From positions 1 through 64,000 of the IMG/VR virus record IMGVR_UViG_3300047471_000189: a DNA stretch of 64,000 nucleotides; one strand, 5' to 3'. This DNA comes from a virus. Positions 61,176 to 64,000 of the stretch are shown piece by piece. Below the pieces are notes generated by a model. That model made no database searches. It saw only the letters and a program-made list of their open reading frames with translations, and was not told the DNA's origin. The translations under genes were made by a program, and so were the position numbers. The stretch's first letter is position 1; each line of letters opens with the position of its first letter.

Positions 61176-61391
61176 CTAGCGAACTCTTGTAATCTCGTGC
61201 TTGCCTTGGATGTTCTTGAAGAAGAAGTTTCCGTGGCTGTCGGCCTGCTGGTATGCCTGAGCTTTCTCAGGTGGAACGTCGTGGACAGCAAATGTCCCGT
61301 TGTTGAGGTCCAGAGTCAGGCGCTGCGCCTGTGGATCGTACCGGGCCCCTTGTACATGCGAACTGGGCTTCAGCTTGAGCGGTTGATCCAC
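61176..61391 (-). CDS. KTSC-domain protein
   Basis: SSHV..ARYD...Q.L.L...G....DVP.E......ADS.G.FF.KNI.GK. Confidence 0.8.
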   Translation of the reverse strand: MDQPLKLKPSSHVQGARYDPQAQRLTLDLNNGTFAVHDVPPEKAQAYQQADSHGNFFFKNIQGKHEITRVR

Positions 61392-61543
61392 TACTTGACC
61401 CTCTTGAGCTTGGGGTTCTTAGCCTTTGCCGCCGGGCTTGCTTTCCGGGTCGCAGACGCTAAAATGGCTCCAGCCGATTTCTTGCTGTAGCCTTCTCCTT
61501 GAATCTTGTTTTGAACTGCTTTGAAGCCGGGGTGTTTTGCCAT
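61391..61543 (-). CDS. small basic protein (50 aa)
   Basis: MAKHPGFKAVQ...KNPKLKRVK, RBS AAGGAG. Confidence 0.65.
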   Translation of the reverse strand: MAKHPGFKAVQNKIQGEGYSKKSAGAILASATRKASPAAKAKNPKLKRVK

Positions 61544-61561
61544 GTAGCTCCTTATGAAATT

Positions 61562-61665
61562 CCCAGAGAGAACAGACGCTAACGGAGACGCCCTTTCGGG
61601 CATTCTTAGCTCCCGGGTTAGGGGAGTTTTAGGCAAGAAGTAACCGTCAACTACACTACTCTGAG
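61562..61665 (-). ncRNA. Y-RNA-like ncRNA (variant without tRNA-like arms)
   Basis: Terminal stem CTCAGAG/CTCTGGG, TAGTGTAG..CTGTTCT, inner stem TTGACGG/CCGTTAG, GGTTACTTC, two hairpins including GCCC-GAAA-GGGC. Confidence 0.7.
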
Positions 61666-61671
61666 TAAAAC

Positions 61672-61808
61672 TACTGGAAGGAACAGACGAACTCGGAGAT
61701 TTTAGCGTTTTACCTTTAAACTACCGGCCCCCGAAGGGACCGACCGGGACTCGAACCCAGAACTCTTTCATTAGCATTGAAGTAACCGAACTCTACACCA
61801 TTCCAGTA
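61672..61808 (-). ncRNA. yrlA: YrlA-type Y RNA (circularly permuted tRNA mimic)
   Basis: Terminal stem TACTGGAA/TTCCAGTA; T-arm CTGGG-TTCGAGT-CCCGG, acceptor-like stem closed by TTCG, then TA and D-arm GTTT-AAAGGTA-AAAC; immediately 3' of a Ro60 gene. Confidence 0.85.
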
Positions 61809-61814
61809 AAAGAT

Positions 61815-61832
61815 GTGGGGGCGAACCCCCAC
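61815..61832 (-). terminator. hairpin after the Ro60 stop (terminator or processing signal)
   Basis: GTGGGGG-TTCG-CCCCCAC followed by ATCTTTT. Confidence 0.5.
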
Positions 61833-61834
61833 GG

Positions 61835-63160
61835 TTAGGATTGTCTTTCAAGTTCCTGAATGTAGTCTACGACAGCTTCGGACCATCCATCAATCCGGAC
61901 CCAGTCTCTTCCGCCGATTCCGTTCTGGTAAGAAGCAACGTTCAGCATGTATCCCTTGGTCCCGACTAGCGGGTTTCCGATGTTGGTTGCGGATTGCTCG
62001 TCGGTTAAGACGATAACCCGGTCGTAGCCCTTCGAAGCAGCCAGCATAACCGCCGCCTGTGTGTCAGTTCCGTGTCCGAACAACCCGCTGCCGATTGCGT
62101 CGTTTAACGCGAACCCGCGACGGGGAGGAACGAACCCGGCAGTCGATCCGAAGGCTATGATCTGGCAGTCGTCGCAGACTTCACGAAGCAACATGGCCAG
62201 AGCAGCCGCCGCGTCCCGACGGGAGATTTCCGACTTTCCGGATACAGTCGACGACATAGAACCAGAGGTATCTACGCAGAGGACCGTCTTTCCAGACAAC
62301 TTAGGTGCGTCGGCCAAGCACTTGAACATAGCCGCTTCCAACTGCGGTTCGAGCGACGGAGCGTACTTTGCAGCCGAGATGAACCGGAAAGGAAGGACAC
62401 GTTCGACCTTCATCTTCGCCAGACCCTCGCGGATCAGGCTATCCGATACTCCGGACCCCTGCATGTTACGCAGGTTGCGAAGCAAAGCCATTGCCCCGAG
62501 CTTGTTCTCGGACAGCAGGCGCTCAAATGTTCCCTTCTTGTCAGAGCCAGCGCTCAAGGAAACTTCCCATGTGTCCGGGGTTTCCAGAGTCTGGTCGACG
62601 ATCTTCTTGAACAGCACAGTCTCGTCGTTGGACGAAGGCTTTGCGTGTGTCAAGAACAGAACGTCCCGCAGCTTGATGGCCGCGTCTGACTTCTGCCACT
62701 TGGCGAATGAGTACTCGTTGAACTTGTTGAAGGCCGCAGCCAGACCCTTCTTGACCTGAGCCGAGAGGGGCTGCTTGCCATCCTTCCAGTAAATCGCGAG
62801 AAATTCCGCGATCTCGTCCGGACGCTGGATGACACGGGTGAGGGTTTCCCCTACCAGCTTGCGGGCTTCCTTGTTCGGGTGCCGGGCAAGTTCCCGTACC
62901 AAGAACAGCGGGATGTGCCGCAGCTTCATCTTTTCGCGGGCTTCGACAGCGATCTGAGACACTTCAAACGGATCGGCTTCGAGCAACGCTTCGCGGACGT
63001 ACTGGGCGTGAGAAACTCCGTCCACGTAGAAGCTGTCTTCCCACAACAGCGAGGCCATCACCAACCGGCGAAGCTTCTGGCTCTTGTTCAGACGGGCAGC
63101 CTGTGCTCCCTCGTGGGTGCGCTCCAGTACCGCCGATGCTGCATTCGTGTTCGTTCTCAT
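61835..63160 (-). CDS. rsr: Ro60/Rsr homolog (TROVE + vWA domains)
   Basis: THEGA.A, LLWEDSFY, KWQK...LRDVLFLTHAKP, TWEV.LS, MALLRNLRNM, VLPFRF, MIDAS DTSGS..T..TDEQ. Confidence 0.92.
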   Translation of the reverse strand: MRTNTNAASAVLERTHEGAQAARLNKSQKLRRLVMASLLWEDSFYVDGVSHAQYVREALLEADPFEVSQIAVEAREKMKLRHIPLFLVRELARHPNKEARKLVGETLTRVIQRPDEIAEFLAIYWKDGKQPLSAQVKKGLAAAFNKFNEYSFAKWQKSDAAIKLRDVLFLTHAKPSSNDETVLFKKIVDQTLETPDTWEVSLSAGSDKKGTFERLLSENKLGAMALLRNLRNMQGSGVSDSLIREGLAKMKVERVLPFRFISAAKYAPSLEPQLEAAMFKCLADAPKLSGKTVLCVDTSGSMSSTVSGKSEISRRDAAAALAMLLREVCDDCQIIAFGSTAGFVPPRRGFALNDAIGSGLFGHGTDTQAAVMLAASKGYDRVIVLTDEQSATNIGNPLVGTKGYMLNVASYQNGIGGRDWVRIDGWSEAVVDYIQELERQS

Positions 63161-63190
63161 GACTTCCTCCAGCCGAAGCTCGGATGATTA

Positions 63191-63258
63191 AGACCGGGAA
63201 TAAGCGGAAAGGGTAGTTTTTCATGCAAGAGAAGTAACCCTAGCCTTCACCACGGTCT
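63191..63258 (-). ncRNA. minimal Y-RNA-like element in the Ro60 leader
   Basis: Stem AGACCG/CGGTCT, TGGTGAAG..CTTATTCC, AGGG/CCCT, GGTTACTTC; same architecture as the two downstream RNAs. Confidence 0.65.
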
Positions 63259-63272
63259 GACTTGACTAAAAA

Positions 63273-63301
63273 CATTGTACCACAACGAAACTCGATTGTA
63301 T
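63273..63301 (-). promoter_or_regulatory. sigma70-type promoter of the Ro60/Y-RNA operon
   Basis: Minus strand TATACA-N17-TACAAT with extended TG (TGTGGTACAAT). Confidence 0.65.
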
Positions 63302-63320
63302 ACCCTAATCTAAAAATAAT

Positions 63321-63557
63321 TTATATCGACCGTTCTTCTTTGTCCCAAGTCTGCGGCATGTGGGTAGATACTTCGGCCCGGAGTATCGGAAGCTTTTTCT
63401 CATCTCTTGCGACTTGAAATGCCTTAGTGAAAAGTTCCGTGTCAGACTTACTATCCACTTCTTCTTGGCTGACTAACCCTAACCCGAGGGCGATCCTCAG
63501 TTGCAAGTAATGCGGCAAGTTCATGAAATCGTAGGCCAAACGCCTCTCTTCCGTCAT
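63321..63557 (-). CDS. small helical protein resembling a stand-alone GAAD adaptor domain
   Basis: R.LAY.F.NLP.....IA..LGL.........L...F..AR....L..L..EV, matched from memory only. Confidence 0.45.
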   Translation of the reverse strand: MTEERRLAYDFMNLPHYLQLRIALGLGLVSQEEVDSKSDTELFTKAFQVARDEKKLPILRAEVSTHMPQTWDKEERSI

Positions 63558-64000
63558 GCTGCTACCAACTCTTTCTCAATTTGAGAAACTTGGTCCATCC
63601 AGTCGGCTATACGGCGGTGTTCTTCCGAGGTTCCGTTGTTCTTGATTCTGTTCGCACGATAAGATATGACGGCTATATTGCCGGGGACGTACCCAAGTTC
63701 GGGATTGACGCGATCAAGGCTTGGACAAGCGTCTCTGTTGTCGTCTGCGGAACCGCGAACCAATTTGATTCCGAGTATGGGACAGAATTCGGGAATTACG
63801 ATATCGGTGTCGGCGATTGTGATTGGTAACCCAAACTTCTTTGCCCTTTTACGGGCTTCATAAAGCAGGGCCTTTTCTGGTTTCTCGTTGGCATACCGGC
63901 GGTTGTACTCCAGAAAGTAGTCTCTGTTTTCCGCTTTGTAGACTTTATTTCTCTCCGATATTTTCTCGGCATTATTCCGGTTGTACGCCTTACGGGTTGC
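63554..64000 (-). CDS. HNH-like endonuclease (5' end outside the window)
   Basis: Frame open to the window edge; ARKRAKK, CPILG, PSLDR.NP.LGYVPGN...IS.RAN..KN. Confidence 0.75.
   Translation of the reverse strand, partial: ATRKAYNRNNAEKISERNKVYKAENRDYFLEYNRRYANEKPEKALLYEARKRAKKFGLPITIADTDIVIPEFCPILGIKLVRGSADDNRDACPSLDRVNPELGYVPGNIAVISYRANRIKNNGTSEEHRRIADWMDQVSQIEKELVAA

What the first reader, a model, noticed from the sequence alone, without database searches (positions are those of the whole stretch)
61562..63301. Phage Ro60 operon with a family of three Y-like RNAs sharing one scaffold but carrying different distal modules
Seen: a Ro60 (TROVE-vWA) gene with its own promoter and three minus-strand RNAs at 63191-63258, 61672-61808 and 61562-61665. 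Each has a terminal stem of different sequence that still pairs, a conserved internal element T[GA]GTG[TA]AG opposite YYTRTTCY, an inner stem ending GG, and the invariant GGTTACTTC. The distal part differs: a bare loop (68 nt), a permuted tRNA mimic (137 nt), or two plain hairpins (104 nt). Known: bacterial Ro60 binds Y RNAs at a bulged terminal stem, YrlA RNAs mimic tRNA, and some phages encode Ro plus YrlA. Inference: one Ro60 with three interchangeable adaptor RNAs could recruit different partners or act as a decoy against host tRNA-targeting defences. The invariant single-stranded UUACUUC may be a protein site or a pairing seed.
Basis: partly seen in the sequence, partly recalled or inferred. 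Interest (0 to 1): 0.9.

Follow-up and report, generated by a model that had tools for sequence, protein, structure and literature searches.

The report
Phage Ro60 gene with three Y RNAs
A soil phage carries a Ro60 RNA-binding protein gene flanked by three small Y RNAs that share one Ro60-binding handle but differ in their outer ends; the same unannotated handle recurs beside Ro60 genes in about a hundred other viral contigs and in Acidobacteriota chromosomes.

Summary
The ORF at 61835-63160(-) is a Ro60 gene (Pfam TROVE and vWA_Ro60). Its nearest solved relative is Thermus phage phiLo Ro60. The motif TRGTGWAG-N5-GGTTACTTC occurs exactly three times in the 78-kb virus record, at the stated places, all on the ro60 strand.

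The same motif lies in at least 119 viral contigs, and 85 of those stretches also hold a Ro60 gene. A covariance model of the scaffold finds 211 copies. Of the 189 in stretches with Ro60, 186 are on its strand, at a median distance of 194 nt, with 1-6 copies per locus. Both helices covary strongly, and G8-C70 switches cleanly to A-U.

E2 is a YrlA-type permuted tRNA mimic, below Rfam's threshold. Its T arm, acceptor-like hairpin, D arm and a Levitt-like 15:48 pair are all supported by covariation. E1 and E3 carry the same handle without the tRNA core, like YrlB.

GGYGWAG is a relaxed form of the known GNCGAAG Ro60 motif. UUAC is YrlA's known YUAY, and CUUC often starts a hairpin, so UUACUUC is not simply single-stranded.

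Expression, Ro60 binding and any decoy role are untested. This is a new variant of a known kind. The scan's only earlier notes are first-reader readings of this same stretch, not of other DNA.

The parts
63274..63302 (-). Promoter-like site TATACA-17-TACAAT with a TG extended -10. It would start transcription a few bases upstream of E1.
   Evidence: the only sigma-70-like match in 61300-63600. This is a consensus match only.
63191..63258 (-). E1, a short Y RNA (68 nt). It has a 6-bp terminal stem, the UGGUGAAG / CUUAUUCC internal loop, an inner stem, GGUUACUUC, and a weak UUC...GAA mini-hairpin.
   Evidence: Model R1 scores it 69 bits, E 1e-15, but it was part of the training alignment. It aligns with 46 short copies from other loci.
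63161..63190 (-). Spacer between E1 and the ro60 start codon. It holds a small UUCG-capped hairpin and a GGAGG ribosome-binding site, with no terminator.
   Evidence: Sequence. No terminator-like site is reported here.
61835..63160 (-). The ro60 gene (441 aa): a TROVE ring plus a vWA domain with a DTSGS MIDAS-type motif.
   Evidence: Pfam TROVE, vWA_Ro60 and VWA_2. PDB 9KOP/9L5Y phage phiLo Ro60, E 1.5e-23 over residues 14-438.
61815..61832 (-). GC-rich UUCG hairpin followed by AUCUUUU, directly after the ro60 stop codon. It is terminator-like or a processing/stability hairpin. Its U-tract runs into the first bases of E2.
   Evidence: 7 pairs, 6 of them GC.
61672..61808 (-). E2, a YrlA-type Y RNA (137 nt). 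It has an 8-bp terminal stem, the handle, UUA, and the hairpin UUCA-AUGCUAA-UGAA. The tRNA-like core follows: T arm 61744-61760, acceptor-like hairpin 61724-61743, D arm 61707-61721.
   Evidence: Rfam YrlA partial hit at 61707-61763. Alignment A2 and RNAalifold. Pair counts including the 15:48-like pair. Model R2 scores it 114 bits, but it was in the training set.
61562..61665 (-). E3, a mid-size Y RNA (104 nt). It has the same handle, with UAGUGUAG paired to ...UUCU. The CUUC arm is extended and ends in a CUCCC/GGGAG hairpin, followed by a GCCC-GAAA-GGGC hairpin.
   Evidence: 49.9 bits, not in the training set. Every substitution in paired positions relative to its homologue in L033 keeps the pairing, and two are double compensatory changes.

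Best explanation
The region is a phage Ro60 ribonucleoprotein module: one ro60 gene and three paralogous Y RNA genes on the same strand. All three RNAs carry the same Ro60-binding handle. The handle is a terminal stem, a conserved asymmetric internal loop (5' U-GG-YGWA, 3' G-YUUGUU-CC), an 8-bp inner stem, and UUAC. This part is shown by sequence and covariation. By homology with YrlA, Yrn1 and the phiLo Yrl RNAs, the handle should dock on Ro60, so the three RNAs would compete for, or share, the one phage Ro60, and possibly the host's Ro60 too. This part is inferred. The distal modules differ. E2 displays a full tRNA-like elbow (T arm, acceptor-like hairpin, D arm) plus an anticodon-arm-like hairpin. 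E3 displays two plain hairpins, and E1 almost nothing. By analogy with characterised Ro60 particles, the distal ends would tether Ro60 to other factors, with host PNPase the leading candidate, or gate access to the Ro60 cavity. That would redirect RNA decay or repair during infection, perhaps as counter-defence. This part is inferred and untested. Transcription probably starts at the promoter-like site upstream of E1 and gives an E1-ro60 transcript. E2 and E3 lie 6 nt apart behind a terminator-like hairpin, so they would arise by read-through and processing, as packed arrays do in relatives.
For: There are three exact motif copies in the record and no others. The motif is found in at least 119 viral contigs, and 85 of those stretches hold a Ro60 homologue of 28-81% identity. 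Model R1 finds 211 copies. Of 189 in Ro60-bearing loci, 186 are on the Ro60 strand, at a median distance of 194 nt. For the handle, 90% of cells pair against 42-56% when partners are slid. G8-C70 reads GC:38 and AU:9 with none unpaired, and the inner stem, which was not used to select sequences, is 86% paired with 5 of 8 pairs compensatory. For the long class, 94.7% of cells pair against 37-49% slid, 28 of 33 pairs are compensatory, and the Levitt-like pair reads CG:26 and UA:5, with E2 among the UA cases. E3 compared with its L033 homologue shows only structure-preserving changes. The handle maps onto published YrlA features: GNCGAAN0-1G, YUAY and the V stem-loop. Cultured phages carry the same family upstream of Ro60: Xanthomonas phage Tenjo at 69.8 and 119.9 bits, CcrColossus, and Brevundimonas phages. 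Literature: phage phiLo Ro60 binds two phage Yrl RNAs and host PNPase (PMC12135203). The Ro60-like gp130 of phage Bas63 counters the ppl defence system (bioRxiv 10.1101/2024.10.10.617714).
Against: There is no expression or binding evidence for this phage. No Rfam family reaches its gathering score: E2 scores 27.7 against 69, and E1 and E3 match nothing. The strict GNCGAAG motif is not met: E1 is GGUGAAG, E2 is GGUGUAG and E3 is AGUGUAG. The outer terminal-stem pairs were a criterion for picking sequences for A1, so their pairing rate is inflated. E1 lies in the ro60 leader with no terminator between them, so it may never exist as a free RNA. The promoter and terminator are consensus matches only, and the host's promoter type is unknown.
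Confidence: 0.82

Rival explanations
1. Some or all elements act in cis as Ro60-binding sites within the ro60 mRNA, for autoregulation or mRNA stabilisation, rather than as free Y RNAs. This applies above all to E1, which sits in the 5' leader.
For: E1 lies between the only promoter-like site and the ro60 ribosome-binding site, with no terminator in between. In relatives, 173 of 189 copies lie upstream of ro60 on the same strand, so co-transcription is the rule.
Against: M. smegmatis YrlA and YrlB are likewise encoded upstream of rsr and are processed from one precursor into free Rsr-bound RNAs (PMC4201824). Arrays of up to 6-8 tightly packed copies are hard to explain as leader operators. E2 and E3, and all four copies in the closest relative L033, lie downstream of ro60.
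Confidence: 0.12
2. The RNAs act mainly on their own as tRNA or anticodon-arm decoys or sponges for host tRNA-targeting nucleases or tRNA enzymes, and Ro60 serves only to stabilise them.
For: E2 has a covariation-supported tRNA elbow. The hairpin after UUA has an anticodon-like 7-nt loop (YU-NNN-RA) in 35% of long copies and 21% of short copies, against about 1% in shuffles, and E2 is one of them. ARAGORN even calls tRNAs on the 5' halves of three relatives. A phage Ro60-like protein counters a defence system.
Against: E1 and E3 lack the elbow, and E1's hairpin is weak (UUC, an 8-nt loop, GAA). The most conserved part of every copy is the Ro60 handle, not the distal module. No nuclease target is known, and the defence countered by Bas63 gp130 is not known to target tRNA.
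Confidence: 0.1
3. The elements are decayed tRNA genes or tRNA-derived repeats that sit near ro60 by common descent within phage tRNA clusters, with no Ro60-related function.
For: Relatives embed the array in tRNA gene clusters: five tRNAs in L033, one in L122, and Streptomyces phage Comrade. The handle's 5' strand resembles tRNA positions 8-25.
Against: Neither ARAGORN nor Rfam's tRNA model accepts any of the three. The covariation supports the handle helices, not a cloverleaf. The strand- and distance-locked link to Ro60 holds across Ro60 proteins that are only 28-58% identical, and in an Acidobacteriaceae chromosome without phage genes.
Confidence: 0.03

Closest known systems
YrlA (Rfam RF02553; S. 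Typhimurium, M. smegmatis, mycobacteriophages, CcrColossus; Chen et al. 2014, PMC4201824)
   Same: It is encoded within a few hundred bases of ro60 on the same strand. A terminal stem carries the Ro60 motif near the 5' end, followed by YUAY, a V stem-loop, a T arm, an acceptor-like hairpin and a D arm in the same permuted order. The 15:48 Levitt pair covaries.
   Different: E2 and all tested relatives score 27-44 bits against the gathering score of 69. The GGCGA/UCGCC helix of the Rfam consensus is replaced by a conserved non-Watson-Crick loop (GGUGWA opposite YUUGUUCC). The internal loop is shorter, and GGUUACUUC is nearly invariant. E2's D stem is GUUU/AAAC instead of GCUC/GAGC.
YrlB / Yrn2: second, non-tRNA-like Y RNAs of Salmonella, M. 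smegmatis and D. radiodurans
   Same: They are additional Ro60-bound RNAs encoded beside YrlA. They share the 5' Ro60 motif, lack a full tRNA domain, and have a pyrimidine-rich distal part.
   Different: E1 and E3 share with their own YrlA the whole handle plus UUACUUC, so they look like YrlA with the tRNA core removed or replaced. YrlB sequences were reported to have no detectable homologues outside Salmonella serovars, whereas the short class here is alignable across about 50 loci.
Thermus phage phiLo Ro60 with Yrl1 and Yrl2 (PMC12135203; PDB 9KOP, 9L5Y)
   Same: A phage Ro60 with more than one phage-encoded stem-bulge-stem Y-like RNA next to the gene. It is the closest solved protein relative (E 1.5e-23). 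Binding of both RNAs and of host PNPase has been shown experimentally.
   Different: phiLo has two RNAs, both upstream, defined by a CGAA motif, and no tRNA-like member is reported. Here there are three, one upstream and two downstream, with UGWA in place of CGAA, and one is a full tRNA mimic.
Metazoan Y RNAs (hY1-hY5, Xenopus Y3)
   Same: A stem formed by the 5' and 3' ends with a conserved bulged Ro60-binding region, variable distal loops, and several paralogues per genome that share the handle.
   Different: Metazoan Y RNAs have no tRNA-like module and are Pol III transcripts. No Rfam Y_RNA match was found here. The sequence resemblance is recalled from memory, not tested.

Membership tests
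Ro60 / TROVE protein | TROVE (HEAT-repeat ring) domain followed by a vWA domain | tested here: met
   Pfam TROVE 45.3 bits, vWA_Ro60 32 bits and VWA_2 27.3 bits, all above their cut-offs. Full-length match to phage phiLo Ro60, PDB 9KOP.
Bacterial/phage Y RNA (general) | Encoded close to ro60 on the same strand | tested here: met
   E1 ends 30 nt upstream of the ro60 start codon. E2 begins 26 nt after the stop codon, and E3 follows 6 nt later, all on the minus strand. The same holds for 186 of 189 copies in relatives.
Bacterial/phage Y RNA (general) | The 5' and 3' ends pair into a stem that carries a conserved Ro60-binding region | tested here: met
   Terminal stem, G8-C70/G9-C69 and inner stem are supported by covariation.
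Bacterial/phage Y RNA (general) | Physically bound by Ro60 and dependent on it for stable accumulation | not testable with these tools
   No RNA data set holds this phage. This needs RIP, EMSA or Northern blots.
YrlA | GNCGAAN0-1G motif near the 5' end | tested here: not met
   The motif is GGUGAAG in E1, GGUGUAG in E2 and AGUGUAG in E3, so the C is replaced by U in all three. The position is homologous: 5 of 34 long-class relatives have GGCG[ACU]AG there, and so do the CcrColossus copies.
YrlA | T arm, acceptor-like stem-loop and D arm in permuted order, with tRNA-like tertiary pairs | tested here: met
   This holds for E2 only: a partial Rfam YrlA match over model positions 28-81, RNAalifold and pair counts, and a 15:48-like pair that is A:U in E2. 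E1 and E3 lack these arms.
YrlA | Conserved YUAY preceding a V stem-loop upstream of the T arm | tested here: met
   UUAC is present in all three elements. The hairpin is UUCA-AUGCUAA-UGAA in E2, extended in E3 and weak in E1.
YrlA | Rfam RF02553 gathering score (69 bits) | tested here: not met
   E2 scores 27.7 bits, and relatives score 31-44 bits.

The most novel reading that the evidence does not exclude
The window is one instance of a large clade of modular Y RNA arrays that Rfam and the records examined leave unannotated. They occur in soil and freshwater phages and in Acidobacteriota and Alphaproteobacteria chromosomes, with 1-8 genes per ro60 locus. One fixed Ro60 handle is combined with swappable distal modules: none, plain hairpins, an anticodon-arm mimic, a T arm only, or a full tRNA mimic. 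The phage copies would load phage or host Ro60 with different adaptors to retarget RNA decay, or would mimic tRNA parts to blunt host defences.
Probability: 0.3. Interest if true: 0.75.

Novelty: new variant of a known kind. Interest (0 to 1): 0.5.

Why it matters
Ro60 and Y RNAs are conserved from bacteria to humans, yet what the different Y RNAs of one organism do is still open. Bacterial Y RNAs other than YrlA have largely escaped homology searches. This family gives about 300 natural variants of one Ro60 handle. They include minimal RNAs of 60-70 nt and define by covariation which positions pair (for example G8-C70) and which stay invariant and unpaired (U7, G11, A13, UUA, the 3' UU). That is a ready-made mutational map for binding studies. 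The same handle carries graded distal modules, which makes the adaptor idea directly testable. Its presence in phages, together with reports that a phage Ro60 binds host PNPase and that a Ro60-like phage protein counters a defence system, points to a role in phage-host conflict. On the practical side, these RNAs are missed by Rfam, and their 5' halves are sometimes called as tRNA genes.

Tried and rejected
- **Rfam at gathering thresholds** on the whole window found nothing.
- **ARAGORN** found no tRNA in the window or in the rest of the record.
- **Model R1 on the remaining 14 kb** of the virus record gave no convincing copy; the best was 17 bits.
- **Public sequencing runs:** no RNA holder is listed. 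The runs that were laid are DNA contigs only, so nothing can be said about transcripts.
- **The 2020 Annual Review on bacterial Ro60** (PMC10870794) is not held.
- **Reading the handle's 5' strand as a tRNA D arm** (U8...A14 R15...G18 G19...A21) was rejected as the fold, because the N5-GG segment covaries with the 3' strand. It remains a possible trace of tRNA ancestry.
- **The CUUC...GAAR mini-hairpin** is only moderately supported in the short class. The mean stem is 3.2 bp against 1.8 bp in shuffles, and it is weak in E1 itself.
- **Exact-pattern hits without a Ro60 gene nearby** (34 viral and 77 genome stretches) were not counted as family members. By my own arithmetic the pattern should match by chance once per 4.3e9 positions, which is roughly 280 times in the 596-Gb genome collection.
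- **Model R1 found nothing in Streptomyces phage Comrade**, whose YrlA has a different handle. Model R2 finds it at 50.6 bits.
- **Earlier-findings look-up** returned only first-reader notes on this same genome.
Full report
**What is there.** The window is part of a 78-kb IMG/VR virus record, about 71% complete by CheckV's estimate. On the minus strand the ORF at 61835-63160 encodes a 441-aa protein with Pfam TROVE, vWA_Ro60 and VWA_2 domains. It matches the crystal and cryo-EM structures of Thermus phage phiLo Ro60 over nearly its full length (PDB 9KOP and 9L5Y, E 1.5e-23).
- E1 is at 63191-63258, 68 nt.
- E2 is at 61672-61808, 137 nt.
- E3 is at 61562-61665, 104 nt.

The shared 5' motif TRGTGWAG-N5-GGTTACTTC matches exactly three times in the window, all on the ro60 strand. 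Even allowing three mismatches, only 0.44 matches are expected. The rest of the record has no further copy.

**Is it more than chance? Conservation elsewhere.**
In 85 of those stretches tblastn finds a Ro60 homologue of 28-81% identity. Among the pattern hits, 102 of 139 have a matching 3' partner: a YYTRTTCY box followed by the complement of the bases upstream of the motif. Their lengths fall into three groups: about 60-76 nt, about 78-117 nt and about 125-149 nt.
- *Pair counts on the short class.* An alignment of 47 short copies (A1) was scored against a structure I specified. 90% of cells pair, against 42-56% when partners are slid, and 12 of 16 pairs show double changes. The pair between the second base of the motif and the last base of the 3' box reads GC:38 and AU:9 with none unpaired. 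The outer terminal-stem pairs were used to pick the sequences, so their rate is inflated. The inner stem was not used for selection and is 86% paired, with 5 of 8 pairs compensatory.
- *Covariance model R1.* In the window, R1 finds only E1, E3 and E2, at 69, 49.9 and 26.6 bits. Across the viral loci it finds 211 copies in 98 loci. Of the 189 copies in loci with Ro60, 186 are on the Ro60 strand, 173 are upstream of it, and the median distance is 194 nt. Copy numbers per locus are 1 (21 loci), 2 (39), 3 (15), 4 (8), 5 (1) and 6 (1). These are lower bounds.
- *Array structure.* Copies are often only 6-13 nt apart. Where all three size classes occur upstream of ro60 (L020, L112; L098 similarly, with two short and two long copies), the order is short, mid, long, then ro60.
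- *Closest relative.* L033 has a Ro60 that is 81% identical. It carries four copies, all downstream of ro60, followed by five tRNA genes. Its homologue of E3 differs at positions that all preserve pairing, including two double compensatory changes.

**The tRNA-like member.**
- *Rfam.* YrlA matches E2 only locally and below threshold: 27.7 bits against a gathering score of 69, over model positions 28-81. Relatives score 31-44 bits.
- *Consensus fold.* On an alignment of 34 long copies including E2 (A2), RNAalifold independently predicts the handle, a T arm, an acceptor-like hairpin and a D arm, and 27 of 32 pairs are compensatory.
- *Pair counts.* With the structure fixed, 94.7% of cells pair against 37-49% when slid. 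A tertiary 15:48-like pair reads CG:26 and UA:5, and E2 is one of the UA cases, as are all copies with A at position 15. Chen et al. reported the same Levitt-pair covariation for YrlA.
- *Model R2.* R2 was built from A2, so the window's 114 bits follow from its construction. It also finds untrained full-length copies: 119.9 bits in Xanthomonas phage Tenjo, 62-100 bits in CcrColossus and 50.6 bits in Streptomyces phage Comrade.
- *Prevalence.* By my count, at least 72 of the 119 viral loci hold a tRNA-like copy. This fits the published rule that each Ro60 species has at least one tRNA-like copy.

**Mapping onto known YrlA features.** Chen et al. 2014 (PMC4201824) define four features: a 5' motif GNCGAAN0-1G thought to contact Ro60; a conserved YUAY that begins a 'V' stem-loop; a T arm, acceptor-like hairpin and D arm; and location within a few kb of ro60 on the same strand.
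- *The Ro60 motif.* The motif here, GGYGWAG, is a relaxed GNCGAAG. Five of the 34 long copies, and the CcrColossus copies, have GGCG at that position.
- *The handle.* In the Rfam consensus, GGCGA pairs with UCGCC. Here only GG/CC remains paired, and the rest is a conserved, non-covarying internal loop opposite YUUGUU.
- *UUAC and the following hairpin.* The UUAC of the 'invariant GGTTACTTC' is the YUAY. CUUC often forms the 5' strand of the following hairpin: the mean stem is 3.2 bp against 1.8 bp in shuffles for short copies, and 4.2 bp against 3.2 bp for long ones. That hairpin has an anticodon-like 7-nt loop (YU-NNN-RA) in 35% of long copies and 21% of short copies, against about 1% of shuffles. 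E2 has UUCA-AUGCUAA-UGAA.

E1 and E3 are best described as YrlA with the tRNA core deleted or replaced, which makes them functional analogues of YrlB and Yrn2.

**Not phage-specific.** The pattern also occurs in at least 120 genome contigs. About 280 chance hits are expected in that collection, so only those with Ro60 nearby count. There are 43 of these, mostly Acidobacteriota (Terriglobia) with some Alphaproteobacteria. R1 finds arrays of up to 8 copies there (L158). In L182, a 1.1-Mb Acidobacteriaceae contig, ro60 with at least five upstream copies is flanked by ordinary cellular genes: a PIG-L deacetylase, a methyltransferase, an aquaporin and a PfkB kinase. That locus is therefore chromosomal. 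The phage comes from rhizosphere or soil metagenomes, so an Acidobacteriota host is plausible but not shown.

**Transcription.**
- The only promoter-like site in 61300-63600 is TATACA-17-TACAAT with TG, ending 16 nt upstream of E1.
- There is no terminator between E1 and ro60.
- A GC-rich UUCG hairpin with a short U tract follows the ro60 stop codon and abuts E2.
- E2 and E3 are 6 nt apart, and E3 is followed within about 10 nt by the ribosome-binding site of a 50-aa basic protein gene.
- I infer one transcription unit with processing. M. smegmatis YrlA and YrlB are processed from one precursor upstream of rsr.
- No RNA data exist for this phage.

**Mechanism.**
- *Shown:* there is a Ro60 gene; the three RNAs share a handle supported by covariation; and E2 has a tRNA-like fold.
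- *Inferred from homologues:* the handle binds Ro60, and the distal modules engage other factors.
- *Precedent:* Y RNAs tether Ro60 to PNPase in Deinococcus and Salmonella. Phage phiLo Ro60 binds two phage Yrl RNAs and forms complexes with host PNPase. The Ro60-like gp130 of phage Bas63 counters the ppl defence system. Jumbo-phage TROVE genes are grouped with RNA-repair systems.
- *Speculative:* the decoy idea rests only on the tRNA-like and anticodon-like shapes.

**Verdict.** The functional inference is untested. The kind is known: a Ro60 gene with several Y RNAs, including in phages. The new points are the handle variant, the three size classes built on one handle, the array sizes, and the breadth of a family that Rfam does not detect.

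Noticed in passing
L033:831-902, L126:3797-3867, L122:3238-3312; L124:4489-4556: ARAGORN calls tRNA-Thr, tRNA-Asn and tRNA-Ser on the 5' halves of YrlA-like RNAs in three relatives. It reads the handle's 5' strand as acceptor plus D arm and the V hairpin as the anticodon arm. The 'tRNA-Gln' annotated in Caulobacter phage CcrColossus lies inside a 98-bit YrlA-like hit, and ARAGORN does not call it. Some phage 'tRNA genes' next to ro60 are probably Y RNA parts. The resemblance may also be a trace of tRNA ancestry.
   Followed up: partly
window 61561 / 63267: One low-depth contig (depth 3.6, 51-nt side, at least 80% identity) in a watershed metagenome joins 61561 directly to 63267. It therefore skips exactly E3-E2-ro60-E1 and links the promoter region to the small basic protein gene. 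This is a weak hint that the Ro60/Y RNA unit is a discrete insertable cassette (table 5).
   Followed up: no
L182:3136-5698; L158:235-6294: Acidobacteriota genomes carry the same Y RNA family in arrays of at least 5 (L182) and 8 (L158) copies upstream of ro60. The L182 locus is flanked by housekeeping genes, so it is chromosomal rather than prophage.
   Followed up: partly
L126:3733-4328 (Xanthomonas phage Tenjo, LR743531.1): The unannotated 670-nt gap upstream of the 'hypothetical protein' that is this phage's Ro60 holds about five Y RNA copies, including a 119.9-bit YrlA-like one and a 69.8-bit short one. Related Xanthomonas phages also label the Ro60 gene as hypothetical.
   Followed up: partly
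window 63321-63557 and 63554-64000 (-); 61391-61543 and 61176-61391 (-): Neighbours of the module. Upstream are a 78-aa GAAD (GTPase-associated adaptor) domain protein and an ORF running off the window end, which from reading its translation looks like an HNH endonuclease (Pfam gave no match). Downstream are a 50-aa Lys-rich protein and a KTSC-domain protein. No RtcB or RtcA is nearby, unlike the Salmonella rsr operon.
   Followed up: no
window 61500-63279: A second, independent soil metagenome run (X2) holds pieces identical to the window that cover E3, E2, parts of ro60 and E1. The same phage therefore occurs in more than one sample (table 8).
   Followed up: no
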